Below, in pieces: positions 9,001 to 15,000 of a stretch of 63,369 nucleotides of DNA. A program made the position numbers. The stretch lies in the sequence record AP012529; one strand, given 5' to 3'. The stretch comes from Stx2-converting phage Stx2a_F403. Numbering within the stretch: the stretch's first letter is position 1; each line of letters begins with the position of its first letter.

Positions 9001-12000
9001 TGTCATATCTCACCTCAAATAAGTGGTTTGCTGCCTAATTTCATTTTCTGGCGACCAACACAAGTCACCTCGCCGTCAGTTGTTTTGATTTCCGGTAGCC
9101 TGCCGCGTAAATGGCTACGTTTGGAAGACATACACCAGTTTCTGGTTGCTTATGTCCAAACTCATTCGCGTACACAATGGCCGCTCGCTCCAGATTGCGT
9201 CTGTATTCTTTCTGTTGCCAGATCACGTCCTGTGCCATGAACTTAATTGGCTTAGCGTCTTCTATGCGCTCAGGCGTTTCGTGAGTACCTTTAGCCTGAA
9301 TCTGCGCTCTGCTTAGAGTAGGGCGGTGTAATACTTCTGAACTTATTGCTTCTTCGCGGGCCAGTACGCCGTTAGCTAATGCCTTTGCCTTTAAACGCTC
9401 ACGACGACGAGAACGTGAATTGCCTTTGAACTGAGTTCTGCGTGTCATATAGACCTCCTGATGAACTTTGGTGGTGTGGTAGGTGGGAGACCCATTTCGA
9501 CCTGTTTCGGCCTACTTCAATTCGGCAATAGTCCCGCAGGCCTCGCCGCTTTACGTGCGACATATTCCCGTCCATGAACCCTTCACCACACCCCAAAGTT
9601 CACTTTGGTTATTGCGCTTTGTCAGCGCCGTAGATTCATATTCGAATCGTTGTATATTCACCGCCCTGGTGAGTAATGCGTCCTGCTGACGACGATAATA
9701 ATGAACCAATAGTTCGACATTATCAAGAACTATTGGTACGAATTTTGGTGATTTATTAACTCTACGAAGTATGATTCTGATATATAAGGAAATTTATTTT
9801 TGAAAATGTGGCTGATGAAGGTTATGCGGCAGGGATCATAACTGCATGGTTTAGCGAGTTACATCAATAAATACAATTGGTTATGTTTTTTAGGTGGGCG
9901 AACGTGAGGCAAAGAAAACCCGGCGCTGAGGCCGGGCTAGATTTTAAAGTATTTATCTTTTAGAGATGTAGATGTAAAACTTTTCGCCTTTGAAAATTTT
10001 TTGTCATCAGAAGGGCTTATGAACTCATCTTTTTTGTAGGGAACCGCTAATGCTGCATCACGTCTGCGAGGCAGCTTGCTTACTTCCTCGCGCTTTTTCA
10101 TGATCAGTTATCCTTTAATAACCTATACAGTTTTGTAGGGGTACATCCTGAGGATATTGTTAAGTTCGTAGCACGCCTTTTCCGCCCATCATCGTATAAA
10201 CGAAAACCAGTAGTAGACGAATTTTCTGCGTCAAAAACTATAGACAGTATAGCGTCCCCAGACTTTTTTTGCCATTCGCATGTGCCGTTAGTTGGTTTCG
10301 TCATCTGTAGACGCCAGTCAAGAACGCCATCACTTATAGCTGAGAGATCGTTTAGTACATCTAGTACGGATTGATATCTTTCATTTGGATCTACATGAAT
10401 GCATTTGTTCACTATTGTTATTAATTTTTTATGTATATGGGGAGGATACTCTTTTAATGGATAGCAGCCATTAATTATCGACTCTCTGAGTTGTTCAATC
10501 GTGCTAAATGCAGATCTTTCTCTTTCAAAATTATCATGTCCAACACACATTCTATATATGGTTAATCCTGCCTGATATATGTCATATGTGAAATTATAAT
10601 CATTTGTTGATAAAGAAAAATATTCCGGTGGCACATGAAAATGATATCCAAACTCAGGCGCAGCTCTCGATTCCTCATTGACTAACTGAGATAATCCAAA
10701 GTCAGATAGCATGGCCTCATTTCTGTTTGATATCATAATGTTATTAGGTTTTATATCAAAATGCATAAGACCTTTTGAGTGTATATGATAAAGTCCACTT
10801 AAAAATTGAATGGAATACCGTATTATCTCCCTGCTTGTAAGATTATTTTTTTTCATTAATTGGTTTAGCGAACCATTATGATAAAATGGCATGGCTATAT
10901 AGATATTGCTCTCACATTGAGCAGCATACTGAACTTGCACAATATTTGGATGTGCATGTTTATAGAGAAGCCTTGCTTCATTAAAGTAGTCGTCGTGGTT
11001 AGTGTTTTCTTTTTTTTCTATTTCTTTAATCACCAAGTCATGAGCTAGGTGTCTGTCATGAGCCAGATATACTTTTGAAAAACAACCCTGTTCTTCTAGA
11101 TCACTAATCCATTCGAATTCTACATCAGCTCTTTTGTATGGAGTTAGCATCCCCTTACCTCCGCAGATAGTGCAGCCAAAACAGCTTCATTTGTTTCAGT
11201 TGTAAAACCAGAATTATCGATTCCATTTATATTGCGGTGTGACTTCAATATTTCTTTATACTCGATCTCTGTTAGGTTCAATGATGATTTCATGCCAGAT
11301 TTTCTAATAGTGTAATATTTTCTTACATCACTGCTTGAAAATGCTTCTTGAATAACAGCTTCTATATAAAGGCGGTCAATGCTAAGATTATCAGAGTTTG
11401 ATTCAGTAACGCGTATGGCAGCTAATTCAACATTATATAAATTAAGAATGTCGAGGATGTTATTTCTCACATACTTTAATTTTTCTGGTGTGTCTAAGGT
11501 CGAAGGTATTTTAATAACATCAACACATTTGAGTGCAGACTCATTAGTGCAATATACAACAAAAGATGTAACTTTGGGCGCCGCTCTAACACCTAGTATT
11601 CTCATTTTTTATATCCTATTTTAGAATCAGGCCGCATCTCTGCGACCATCCATCATCCAAACGTCTCTTCACTCATCCGAAGAAGCAGCAATCCGGGTTA
11701 GCACGCACAAGCTCAAGCGCATCAGTCAGCGAAAGTTCAGTACTGTACTGATGCCATTTCATATCCTTCCGCATCCAATAGATTTTCCATCTATCCAGAG
11801 AACGTATGTACTTGATTCTTGCTGATGGCAGGATGTTTGTTTCACCTGGATTGCCCTGCCACACGGGGCGCTGTTCGCCGATATCTATCGTTTGGTCATT
11901 GATGCTATAAACAATATCCAGTTCATTGCGGATATGTTCAGGCGGCCTTATGCTTTCAATGAATTGGTGAACTTCTTTTTTTACTGCTTGATATTCAAGG

Positions 12001-15000
12001 TCATTGAACGCCATCTATCCTCCTTACCCAAACGTCTCTTCAGGCCACTGGTTACCAGCTATGTGACGATGAAGTCACGAACTTTTCAGCCACTCCCTTG
12101 CCTCGATGTCATCCAGATGGCGAGATTGCTTCAGAATACCAGCTACATACTCCACCTTTGCTACTTGATGATAAGGCAACGTTATAGGCCTGTGATCCTG
12201 GTTAATGCTTGTAAATTGGTATTCTCCATCTCTGTCATAGCCAAGAACCTTAATCATGTTGTGTCCTTCAACGGTTCTGACAAACACCTCATCACCCGGG
12301 AATACTTTGGTGTTAGGCTCAATGAGTACATATTCTCCTGATTTTATTCTGGGCCACATGCTGTCTCCTTTCACACGAAGACCAAAGGCATCTGGATCAT
12401 CGCTATAAATTTTGAGCCACCCATCGCGCTCTTCGGTCATCTCGATGGCACCATCAACACCAAGAATTGCCTCACCAACCACGCGCACTAACCCTTTTTT
12501 TAATTTGCCAACAAATGAAAGAGTATCTTCATCATTCGCTCCATTTAACGAAGTGCCGTGCTGAAGCCAAACAACATCAACGTTTAGAAATTTCGCAAGC
12601 GCATTCATTTTTTCCTGACGCGGTAAAGACTCAGCATTAAACCATTTGCTAACGCCTTTGGACGAAAGAGAAAGGGCACGGGCTATAGCCATTCCCCTAC
12701 CATGTTCATCAAGACCAGCTTCTTTACAGGCTTGCGCTAGCCGCTGGGCGAATTCTTTGCGCACTTTTTCATTCTGAACCATGAGTACGATACTAAAGCA
12801 CTTGCAAAAACTTTCAGTTCAACCATAATACGTACTGAAAGTACGAAAAAGGATATTCCTATGCAAAATCTTGATGAGCCGATTAAAGGTGTCGGCATCC
12901 CTGAAGTTGCGAAGGCTTGTGGAGTTAGCGAAAGGGCTGTCTATAAGTGGCTCAAAAACGGCTTCCTCCCTAAGACTGAGTTTTTTGGGAAAACTAAATA
13001 CGCATCAAAAATCGAAGAGATTTCTGGTGGCAAATATCAAGCAAGCGAAATGCTTGAAATAAGCAAAAAGAACCTTCTGGCTGCATAAGTAACACCGCTA
13101 TTTTCACAATGGACATTCGTCCTACGTCGCTGACAAAGCGAGTCCCAATATATCTGACCAACTAAGGCCATATGCGTTTCCACGCATACCTTTCAACTAA
13201 CTATTCACTATTGGAAATCTTAAGAAATGGAACAAACAAGTTACAGCAAACTATCCCAGCGTGACGTTGATCGCGCAGAAACTGATTTACTCATCAACCT
13301 GTCAACGCTTACCCAGCGTGGTCTGGCAAAGATGATTGGCTGTCATGAATCGAAGATAAGCAGAACGGACTGGAGGTTTATTGCTTCGGTCTTGTGTGCT
13401 TTCGGAATGGCATCAGACATCAGTCCGATTAGCAGGGCTTTTAAGTATGCGCTTGATGGACTCACCAATAAAAAACGCCCGGTGTGCAAGACCGAGCGTT
13501 CTGATCAAATACAAATGGAATTTTAACAACATCCAACGAGGTAATTATATGCGAAAAACGCAGGAAAATAAACGCGTTAATCACCGAAAAGATGTGCTAC
13601 GTGACCAGTTTTATCAGGGGGTTAATCCAGCAATAGCTGTGCCACTGAGAGAAATACTTAACAGGTACAAAACTTCGGAGAAGTCAAAATGAGCATGAAT
13701 CTTATGGCTAAGGCCATGAATATAAAGGTTGGCAACCCACTGAGAAAACTGGTTCTGATTAAACTTGCCGATAACGCCAATGATAATGGCGAATGCTGGC
13801 CTTCATATCAACATGTCGCTGACCAGTGTGAGGTGAGCAGATCGACAGTAAAAAGTCACATTAGGGCACTGGAAGAGATGGGGCTTTTGAAAAGGGAATT
13901 CAGAAGAAAAGGAGAGCTTAACCAGTCAAACGTTTTTTATCTGACGCTGGATAATGCACAACAAATCCAACCAGAATCAGGTGGGGCAGGAGCTGCCCGG
14001 GGTGGGGCAGGAGCTGCCCTAGGGGGTGGGGCAGGAGCTGCCCCCAGAACCTATCACTCTTTTGAACCAGTCAATGAACCTAAAAACATTATGTTCGAAC
14101 ATGTCCGAACAGAGTGTGAAAAAACTCCTGACCGTCACGAAGAAACCGACAAGGCATTCGAGGAAATATTCTGGTGTGCAGGCATGCGGAAAGCCGGGAA
14201 GAAAAACGCAGCTTCAGCATTCAGAACACAGTTCAGGGAATGGCGTAAAACTACCAGGGGGACGGCAAGCGAGTTTGCCACGATGCTGGCAGAAGACATT
14301 GCGTGCAGGCTCGGTAAGCAGTTCGGGTTCGACAGGTTGTTACCATCGAGCTACCTGAACGGTCAACGCTGGAACGACGAGAAGCCAGAAACTATTCAAC
14401 CACAATCCAAACCATCATCCGCAATCACCGTATCGAAAACTGGCTACGTGTTTTTCGACAGGTGAACCATGAAATCCAGAATCAAATCGTTACTTATCGC
14501 TGGCTATAACCATGGCTGGCTTAGTTCTGCATTCGTTGAGTTCTGGTTTAACCGTCTCGATCTGAGGTCAGCGTAATGACTCCAAGTGAACTGAGCGACC
14601 TGCTTTGGGCGCAGGTTGACAGGGTGGCTCCGCACCTGTTGCCAAACGGCAAGAAAGAGGGGCATGAGTGGGTTGCCGGTAACGTCAACGGTGACAAGGG
14701 AAACAGCCTTAAGGTCAACATTAGCGGCAAGAAAAAATGGGCTGATTTCGCTGAGGGAGACGGCGGTGACATGCTTGATTTGTGGATGGCATGTCGTGGA
14801 ATTAACCTGCATCAGGCTATGCAGGAAGCGAAAGCATTTCTCGGTATCAAGGATGACGATCACCATTTCGATGCCAAACGTGAGAAAAAATTCTCCAGAC
14901 CTGACCGCAAGAAAATCGCCCGCTACGTTACCAGAACAGAATCCCATCTTGAGTACCTGCAATCGCGTGGCATATCGCCAGAAATCGTAAAGCGCTACGA

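What the first reader, a model, noticed from the sequence alone, without database searches (positions are those of the whole stretch)
10104..12014. Eukaryotic-like kinase module in the rexAB-equivalent slot
Between cI and the N/pL region, co-oriented with cI, sit three ORFs: a 113-aa protein, a 153-aa protein, and a 348-aa Hanks-type kinase whose start overlaps the 153-aa ORF's stop. The kinase pair is distinctly AT-rich. This is the position where lambda carries the rexAB exclusion genes, so these are likely expressed in the lysogen. A prophage tyrosine/serine kinase in this position has been linked to abortive exclusion of another phage in 933W-type phages; the roles of the two small partners are unknown to me.
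Basis: partly seen in the sequence, partly recalled or inferred. Interest (0 to 1): 0.6.

Follow-up and report, generated by a model that had tools for sequence, protein, structure and literature searches.

The report
Stk kinase exclusion cassette of 933W
This is the already-characterised stk abortive-infection kinase locus of a 933W-type Shiga-toxin prophage, but the kinase turns out to be the middle gene of a widely conserved three-gene cassette whose two partner proteins have apparently never been studied.

Summary
Window 6480-13199 is base-for-base identical to phage 933W, so the 348-aa kinase is the published Stk. Stk is co-transcribed with cI and aborts HK97 infection. The finding as given is therefore already known.

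The module boundaries need correcting:
- The 113-aa DUF3024 gene is a separate cassette. It has cI-like GC, is bracketed by a 15-nt direct repeat, occurs without the kinase in other prophages, and is absent from almost all kinase loci elsewhere.
All three have 35-38% GC, and the unit ends at terminator tM.

In 120 testable loci from Proteobacteria, Bacteroidota and a cyanobacterium, the 153-aa homologue is followed at once by a full-length Stk-like kinase. In 119 of them a small basic ORF follows the kinase.

Both small partners were seen as lysogen-restricted proteins in φ24B. I found no paper on the three-gene architecture.

The parts
12790..12817 (-). pRM (pM) maintenance promoter, which drives cI and the downstream genes in the lysogen
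   Evidence: From the 933W RefSeq annotation. Window 6480-13199 is identical to 933W at the same coordinates. pRM control of stk is stated in PMC3430580 and PMC3564112.
12075..12782 (-). cI repressor (235 aa; HTH plus S24 peptidase)
   Evidence: ORF. Pfam Peptidase_S24 4e-16 and HTH_3 1e-5. Annotated as cI in 933W.
12028..12042 (.). Left copy of a perfect 15-nt direct repeat (CCAAACGTCTCTTCA) that brackets the DUF3024 gene
   Evidence: the repeat finder. It lies between the cI stop and the DUF3024 Shine-Dalgarno sequence.
11673..12014 (-). DUF3024 gene (113 aa): a separate neighbouring cassette, a candidate single-gene defence protein (PADLOC PDC-S43), and not part of the kinase module
   Evidence: Pfam DUF3024 1e-30 and PADLOC PDC-S43 4e-41. 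GC 44.4%. Next to the kinase in 1 of 80 genome loci and in 6 of 39 divergent viral loci with an intact kinase, all Proteus-type. Found with cI but without the kinase in L082. Detected as a lysogen-restricted protein, P2 = NP_049484 (PMC3342100).
11657..11671 (.). Right copy of the 15-nt direct repeat, just downstream of the DUF3024 stop codon
11144..11605 (-). 153-aa RuvC-fold protein (933W L0083, φ24B 'res'), first gene of the conserved kinase cassette; it lacks the RuvC catalytic tetrad
10104..11150 (-). stk: 348-aa Hanks-type protein kinase (kinase domain about 1-270; conserved C-terminal beta-sheet domain about 275-348); the effector of HK97 exclusion
9937..10101 (-).
   Evidence: ORF; annotated as ST933Wp21; phrog_4063 2.5e-39; AGGA Shine-Dalgarno. 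An iterative search from it finds 19 loci, all directly after a kinase, with no off-position hit among 19,115 ORFs. A small basic ORF follows the kinase in 119/120 loci, against a 17% background.
9915..9938 (-). tM intrinsic terminator, which ends the pRM operon
   Evidence: Terminator scan: 8-bp stem with 6 GC pairs, then a T-run. Annotated as tM in 933W. The same 37-nt end lies next to lambda rexB in other E. coli (H36).

Best explanation
This is the stk abortive-infection locus of a 933W/φ24B/Min27-type Stx prophage.

Shown or published: in the lysogen, pRM transcribes cI, the DUF3024 gene, the 153-aa gene, stk and the 54-aa gene as far as terminator tM. Stk is nearly silent in uninfected cells. 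When phage HK97 infects, Stk is switched on, phosphorylates host proteins, and the cell dies without releasing phage. From memory of Friedman 2011, the HK97 trigger is gp0.5.

Shown here by comparative genomics: the working unit is a horizontally acquired, AT-rich three-gene cassette. It consists of a RuvC-fold protein, the kinase with a private C-terminal domain, and a small basic protein. The first two genes are translationally coupled. The cassette is conserved as a unit across several bacterial phyla, in prophage immunity regions, Tn7-like elements and defence islands. The DUF3024 gene is an unrelated neighbouring cassette.

Inferred: the RuvC-fold protein is not a resolvase, because arginines replace its metal-binding acids. 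It is instead a regulatory or sensor subunit of the kinase. The small basic protein is a second regulatory subunit (inhibitor or adaptor) that helps keep the kinase off until a phage cue arrives.
For: Identity with 933W.

Published function and expression: PMC3681748 and PMC3564112 (HK97-activated kinase, abortive infection, co-transcription with cI); PMC3430580 (pRM control); PMC3342100 (153-aa and DUF3024 proteins detected only in stable lysogens); PMC4651098 (cI, stk and res unchanged on induction).

Kinase competence: all catalytic residues are invariant.

Cassette unity:
- 77/80 genome loci and 39/43 viral loci have the kinase right after the 153-aa homologue, usually with a 1-8 nt overlap; every exception is a contig end.
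- A small ORF follows the kinase in 119/120 loci, against a 17% background.
- The three genes share 35-38% GC.
- Independent gene callers place the same three genes in loci L084-L086 and L088.

Defence context: the neighbours include CapH/CapP, dGTPase, DarG, R-M, AbiJ, SAVED and TniQ genes. The same cI slot holds a HigB TA trio or other cargo in other prophages.

RuvC fold without the tetrad.
Against: - No experiment known to me tests the 153-aa or 54-aa genes. The primary Stk papers could not be read here. If stk alone on a plasmid reproduced exclusion, the partners would be modulators, not essential parts.
- The mapping of R7 and R65 onto RuvC D7 and E66 rests on a weak hhalign alignment (probability 1%) plus matching strand positions in the model. 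It does not rest on superposed coordinates.
- The protein keeps invariant E68, E82, E87, E140 and D52, so a non-canonical catalytic site is not excluded.
- Homology between the 933W-type small ORF and the larger small-ORF family could not be shown by HMM.
- The loci are not phylogenetically independent, so the co-occurrence counts overstate the number of independent events.
Confidence: 0.7

Rival explanations
1. The RuvC-fold protein is an active nuclease and the real killing effector. The kinase is the sensor or switch that activates it by phosphorylation on infection, so the phage or host DNA is cut.
Against: An Arg sits at the position of the first catalytic Asp in 107/107 sequences, and R/K at the position aligned to RuvC E66. 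No sequence-level RuvC signal. Published work attributes exclusion to kinase activity and widespread tyrosine phosphorylation (PMC3681748).
Confidence: 0.12
2. The cassette is mainly a kinase-toxin/antitoxin addiction or prophage-regulation module (HipA-like or KKP-like). It stabilises the prophage or tunes induction, and phage exclusion is a side effect.
For: A kinase with a small, co-translated basic partner resembles toxin-antitoxin layouts. The same slot holds a HigB-type TA trio in other prophages. The cassette often follows cI, CapH/CapP or ImmA-type DNA-damage-responsive regulators. A kinase module that controls lysogeny has a precedent in KKP (PMC11341870).
Against: HK97-specific activation and abortive infection are published for this exact gene (PMC3681748, PMC3564112). 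Many loci are not in prophages but in defence-island-like neighbourhoods. There is no phosphatase partner as in KKP.
Confidence: 0.12
3. One reading: the DUF3024 protein, the 153-aa protein and the kinase form one functional three-gene module.
For: The three genes are adjacent, co-oriented and co-transcribed in 933W. The same trio occurs in Proteus-type phages (L002 and L127-L135). The DUF3024 protein is expressed in lysogens (PMC3342100).
Against: DUF3024 is absent from 79 of 80 genome loci and from most viral loci that carry the kinase pair. It occurs with cI but without the kinase in L082. Its GC differs (44% against 35%). It is bracketed by a 15-nt direct repeat. PADLOC lists it as a single-gene candidate.
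Confidence: 0.04

Closest known systems
Stk of phage 933W (Tyler & Friedman 2004; Friedman et al. 2011)
   Same: The same gene: 100% nucleotide identity at the same coordinates, the same operon (cI to tM), and the same phage type.
   Different: Nothing differs in sequence. As far as I could find, the published work treats stk as a single gene. The conserved flanking partners (153 aa and 54 aa) are not discussed in any paper I could search.
Lambda RexAB
   Same: The same genomic slot (downstream of cI, pRM-transcribed, ending at the same terminator sequence) and the same logic: a prophage-encoded abortive exclusion system triggered by a heterologous phage.
   Different: No sequence or fold relationship. 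Rex is a sensor plus a membrane ion channel, whereas this is a soluble kinase cassette. No RexA or RexB model matched in the PADLOC scan of these proteins.
Staphylococcal Stk2 and E. coli PD-T4-6 (single-gene Ser/Thr kinase defence systems)
   Same: A Hanks-type kinase acts as an abortive-infection effector that a phage factor activates. The kinase domain matches PD-T4-6 HMMs (1e-37).
   Different: Those systems are described as single genes (PMC9519451; Depardieu 2016). Here the kinase has a different C-terminal domain and two tightly linked partner genes. The HMM matches cover only the kinase domain (residues 20-276).
RuvC Holliday-junction resolvase
   Different: About 15% identity and no HMM-level similarity. 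Invariant Arg or Lys sit at the positions aligned to catalytic D7 and E66. The gene is always coupled to a kinase gene.
MADS MAD6 kinase and the BREX PglW / Mokosh MkoA kinase domains
   Same: Hanks-type kinase domains inside defence systems. MAD6 is the best PADLOC hit (7e-50).
   Different: The NCBIfam MAD6 score is 122 bits against a cut-off of 460. None of the other MADS, BREX or Mokosh genes is present. The protein is much smaller.
KEOPS Kae1-Bud32 pair
   Different: This is an analogy only. The fold match to RuvC is far stronger than to Kae1, and there is no tRNA-modification context.

Membership tests
933W Stk (published abortive-infection kinase) | Sequence identity with 933W stk and the same operon position (cI ... 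stk ... tM) | tested here: met
   100% identity over 9900-12100 and over 6480-13199.
933W Stk (published abortive-infection kinase) | Kinase activated by HK97 infection, causing abortive infection | not testable with these tools
   Literature only: PMC3681748, PMC3564112 and PMC6356687, citing Friedman 2011. The primary paper is not held.
Hanks-type (eukaryotic-like) protein kinase | Complete catalytic core: Gly loop, VAIK Lys, alphaC Glu, HxD/K/N catalytic loop, DFG, APE, subdomain XI Arg | tested here: met
Hanks-type (eukaryotic-like) protein kinase | Tyrosine rather than Ser/Thr specificity | not testable with these tools
   The catalytic loop is DIKPNN, the Ser/Thr type. Tyrosine activity is reported experimentally (PMC3681748 and PMC3430580, citing Tyler & Friedman 2004).
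RuvC Holliday-junction resolvase | RuvC/RNase H-like fold | tested here: met
RuvC Holliday-junction resolvase | DEDD catalytic tetrad (E. coli D7, E66, D138, D141) | tested here: not met
   R7 in 107/107 sequences, R or K at position 65 in 107/107, and only E140 kept in the last helix. The mapping comes from hhalign (weak) and from strand positions in the model.
RuvC Holliday-junction resolvase | Sequence-model membership | tested here: not met
   NCBIfam RuvC E 0.098 and 12.5 bits against a cut-off of 163. No Pfam hit. The profile search of PDB sequences finds no RuvC.
PD-T4-6 (PADLOC / Vassallo 2022) | Match to PD-T4-6 kinase HMMs | tested here: met
   Best E 1e-37, covering kinase domain residues 20-273 only.
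PD-T4-6 (PADLOC / Vassallo 2022) | Single-gene system | tested here: not met
   The kinase is flanked by conserved partners in about 120 loci. PD-T4-6 is described only as a Ser/Thr kinase system (PMC9519451).
MADS (MAD6 kinase) | Curated MAD6 score and presence of the other mad genes | tested here: not met
   NCBIfam MAD6 122 bits against a cut-off of 460. The PADLOC scan of the neighbouring window ORFs gave no other mad model.
DUF3024 / PADLOC PDC-S43 | Full-length match to the family model | tested here: met
   Pfam 1.2e-30 over residues 4-113. PDC-S43 4.4e-41 over residues 1-113.
Lambda RexAB | Homology to RexA or RexB | tested here: not met
   No Rex model appears among the PADLOC or Pfam hits for any ORF in the slot. 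Only the position and the terminator are shared.

The most novel reading that the evidence does not exclude
Stk is not a stand-alone kinase. It is the effector of a widespread, so far unnamed three-component defence cassette. In it, a RuvC-fold pseudo-nuclease, whose former metal site has become an invariant arginine-lined pocket, senses the phage cue (the HK97 trigger protein, a DNA structure, or a phospho-ligand). A small basic protein gates the kinase. The cassette moves between prophage immunity regions, Tn7-like elements and defence islands across bacterial phyla.
Probability: 0.4. Interest if true: 0.6.

Novelty: already known. Interest (0 to 1): 0.4.

Why it matters
The locus itself is textbook material for Stx-phage biology, so re-finding it adds nothing. 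The open question is how Stk stays silent and how it recognises HK97. The comparative result gives concrete candidates for that role: two obligate-looking partner genes that were already detected as lysogen proteins but never studied. It also suggests that the "RuvC-like resolvase" label propagated in RefSeq and PHROGs is probably a functional misannotation. Tools that call this locus as a single-gene kinase system would then miss two thirds of it. About 3.6% of complete E. coli genomes (193 of 5426) carry the exact region, most hits being Stx-phage-like prophages, so the cassette may influence which phages can superinfect or be used against STEC.

Tried and rejected
- The primary Stk papers (Tyler & Friedman 2004; Tyler 2004; Friedman 2011) are not in the library. 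I could therefore not check whether the published constructs carried the neighbouring ORFs.
- Literature searches for DUF3024, for RuvC-like plus kinase plus defence, for 933W/Stk since 2020 and for Hanks-type kinase defence systems found no description of the three-gene arrangement. PMC3829904 and the 2025 trigger-screen preprint turned out to be irrelevant.
- A sequence-profile search of PDB with the 153-aa family found no RuvC.
- I tried to prove that the 933W 54-aa ORF is homologous to the larger small-ORF family. A leave-clade-out HMM, an iterative HMM with enterobacterial intermediates and an iterative search from the 933W ORF all failed to link the two families. I therefore claim positional and compositional conservation only. 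The motif I saw by eye (Y..R[ST].L) is not statistically supported.
- The promoter scan found no more promoter-like sites than shuffled sequence gives, and none in the gap before the 153-aa gene.
- No complex prediction was possible with the tools.
- I considered a MADS, BREX or Mokosh affiliation and rejected it.
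Full report
OBSERVATION. The three ORFs are on the minus strand exactly as described: 113 aa at 11673-12014, 153 aa at 11144-11605, and 348 aa at 10104-11150. cI lies upstream (12075-12782) and N downstream (9065-9448). The kinase start overlaps the 153-aa stop (ATGCTAA). The 348-aa protein matches Pfam Pkinase at 2e-46. The AT-richness is real: 34.8% GC for the 153-aa gene and 35.4% for the kinase, against 49.5% for the window.

It starts 2 nt after the kinase stop. 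Its own stop codon runs into the stem of a strong intrinsic terminator. All four ORFs after cI have Shine-Dalgarno sequences.

IDENTITY. The region is 100% identical to phage 933W at the same coordinates, and to φ24B, Min27 and many other Stx phages. Base-for-base identity with 933W runs from 6480 to 13199. To the right of that, the window carries the φ24B/Min27-type replication module.

The kinase is therefore the published stk gene. The 153-aa and 113-aa ORFs are 933W L0083 and L0084, and the 54-aa ORF is ST933Wp21. The 933W annotation supplies pRM (12790-12817) and terminator tM (9915-9936).

WHAT IS PUBLISHED. I could not open the primary papers. Several open papers summarise them:
- Stk is a eukaryotic-like tyrosine kinase that is co-transcribed with cI.
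- It has little or no activity in uninfected cells.
- HK97 infection activates it, and the infection then aborts (PMC3681748, PMC3564112, PMC6356687).
- stk expression is under pRM and confined to stable lysogeny (PMC3430580).

From memory, Friedman et al. 2011 identified HK97 gp0.5 as the trigger.

The refutation criterion "no expression in the lysogen" has already been addressed, in φ24B, which is identical to the window across both the immunity and replication regions. Riley et al. 2012 detected both NP_049484 (DUF3024) and NP_049483 (the 153-aa protein) as proteins by 2D-PAGE/MS. They also showed by RT-qPCR that the transcripts are restricted to stable lysogens (PMC3342100). RNA-seq later found cI, stk and "res" unchanged on induction (PMC4651098).

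WHAT THE MODULE REALLY IS. I collected homologues of the 153-aa protein (alignment A1) and fetched 80 loci from one-genome-per-species contigs. They come from Gamma-, Beta- and Alphaproteobacteria, Bacteroidota (Sphingobacterium, Pedobacter, a Cytophagales MAG), a cyanobacterium and a Polyangium MAG.

In 77 of the 80, the homologue is followed at once by a full-length Stk-like kinase of 342-355 aa (phmmer E 1e-63 to 1e-133). The two genes usually overlap by 1-8 nt. The three exceptions end at a contig edge.

In 43 divergent viral contigs the result is the same: 39 loci have the kinase and 4 are truncated. Five further enterobacterial loci, fetched through their kinases, show the same order with independently called genes.

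DUF3024 accompanies the pair only in the 933W type and in one Proteus-phage type. Further evidence that DUF3024 is a separate cassette:
- It has cI-like GC (44.4%).
- It is bracketed by a perfect 15-nt direct repeat.
- In E. coli CP042892 it sits after the same cI and is followed by two unrelated genes instead of the kinase cassette.
- PADLOC lists it as a single-gene defence candidate, PDC-S43.

Another prophage carries a HigB-HTH-hypothetical trio in the slot. The terminator end is shared with lambda rexB. The space between cI and tM is therefore a cargo hotspot, and here it holds two independent cassettes.

THE THIRD GENE. A co-directional ORF of 40-100 aa starts within a few bases of the kinase stop in 119 of 120 testable loci. 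Such ORFs follow only 17% of other long genes in the same loci (74/76 against 80/469; binomial p about 3e-54, inflated by the relatedness of the loci). Of these ORFs, 97% have pI above 9, and none has a membrane-like segment.

An iterative search that started from the 933W ORF found 19 loci. Every hit lay directly after a kinase, and none of the 19,115 ORFs elsewhere was hit. The gene is therefore real and under selection in this clade.

The small ORFs fall into two large sequence families (70 and 33 members) plus a few small ones. Three attempts to link the 933W type to the larger family by HMM failed. Cross-family homology is unproven, and the shared motif I saw by eye should be treated as a lead only.

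A weak profile-profile alignment places R7 on RuvC D7 ("GVR" against "GID") and R65 on E66 at the end of strand 4. This agrees with the strand positions in the model.

Among 107 distinct homologues, R7 is invariant and position 65 is R (102) or K (5). K44, R47, D52, E68, E82, Q86, E87, S91 and E140 are also invariant. The protein therefore has a strongly constrained site, but not the DEDD tetrad that defines RuvC.

I conclude that the "RuvC-like Holliday junction resolvase" label describes the fold and probably not the function. A non-canonical nuclease cannot be excluded. The family is moderate in size: 449 representatives at 50% clustering, almost all standalone proteins of 150-165 aa.

THE KINASE. 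All catalytic residues are invariant across 40 diverse members. The catalytic loop reads HFDIKPNN, which is non-RD and of the Ser/Thr type, despite the reported tyrosine activity.

CONTEXT. No neighbour beyond the three genes is conserved. Immediate neighbours include the following:
- regulators of the cI/S24, ImmA/IrrE-M78 and CapH/CapP types;
- defence genes: dGTPase, DarG, methyltransferases and restriction enzymes, SAVED, AbiJ, PDC-S15 and HipA;
- mobile-element genes: Tn7 TniQ/TnsD, integrases, phage N and tail genes.

This is the signature of a mobile defence cassette, often placed under a DNA-damage-responsive repressor. The full 2.2-kb region occurs in 193 of 5426 complete E. coli genomes.

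MECHANISM.
Shown or published: the genes are transcribed from pRM in the lysogen. The kinase is silent until HK97 infects, and kinase activity then causes abortive infection.

Shown here: the kinase always travels with a RuvC-fold protein upstream and a small basic protein downstream, as one compositionally distinct unit with overlapping or abutting reading frames.

Inferred: the three proteins act together. The kinase is the effector. The RuvC-fold protein is a non-nucleolytic sensor or regulatory subunit. The small basic protein is an inhibitor or adaptor. I give about 0.85 that both partners function with the kinase, and about 0.4-0.5 for the specific roles.

They are scored separately, and the last is largely refuted by distribution.

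NOVELTY AND VERDICT. The finding as written re-discovers a characterised gene and is "already known".

The added value lies in three things: the conserved three-gene architecture, the doubtful resolvase annotation, and the separation of DUF3024 from the module. None of my searches found the architecture described. However, the library lacks most subscription journals, including the primary Stk papers.

Overall interest is moderate-low (0.4). If the partners prove to be the sensing and gating subunits, the case would deserve about 0.6.

Noticed in passing
window 14576-17482 (+): A 968-aa Toprim primase / AAA_25 helicase replication gene is interrupted by an intein (Hint plus LAGLIDADG homing-endonuclease domains at about residues 379-634). 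The region is identical to φ24B/Stx2a_F451 and 99.8% identical to Min27, whereas 933W has lambda-type O/P genes here.
   Followed up: partly
window 11657-11671 and 12028-12042: A perfect 15-nt direct repeat (CCAAACGTCTCTTCA) brackets the DUF3024 gene. One copy follows the cI stop and the other follows the DUF3024 stop. It looks like the recombination joint of a separately inserted cassette.
   Followed up: partly
L082 (E. coli CP042892) 1418-2523; L083 (E. coli CP074717) 1547-2888: The cI-to-tM slot holds other cargo in related prophages. One has two overlapping unknown genes (162 and 206 aa, no Pfam match above threshold) after DUF3024. Another has a HigB-HTH-134-aa trio. The 37-nt terminator end is also found next to lambda rexB.
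   Followed up: partly
window 11606-11672 (gap before the 153-aa gene): Riley et al. 2012 measured the 153-aa gene transcript about five orders of magnitude above cI, and DUF3024 about one order above it, although all should come from pRM. I found no convincing sigma-70 promoter in the gap (PMC3342100). This remains unexplained.
   Followed up: partly
window 8017-9006 (-): Two further AT-rich ORFs (33-39% GC) of unknown function lie between N and cIII: a 156-aa protein (phrog_1636) and a DUF2528 protein that 933W annotates as Ea10/Ssb-like. They are possibly more accessory cargo.
   Followed up: no
L-series genome loci, upstream neighbours (alignment A3): Outside lambdoid prophages, the kinase cassette is repeatedly preceded by CapH/CapP-like (3 and 4 loci) or ImmA/IrrE-M78 plus HTH regulator pairs. 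This suggests DNA-damage-responsive control analogous to cI.
   Followed up: no
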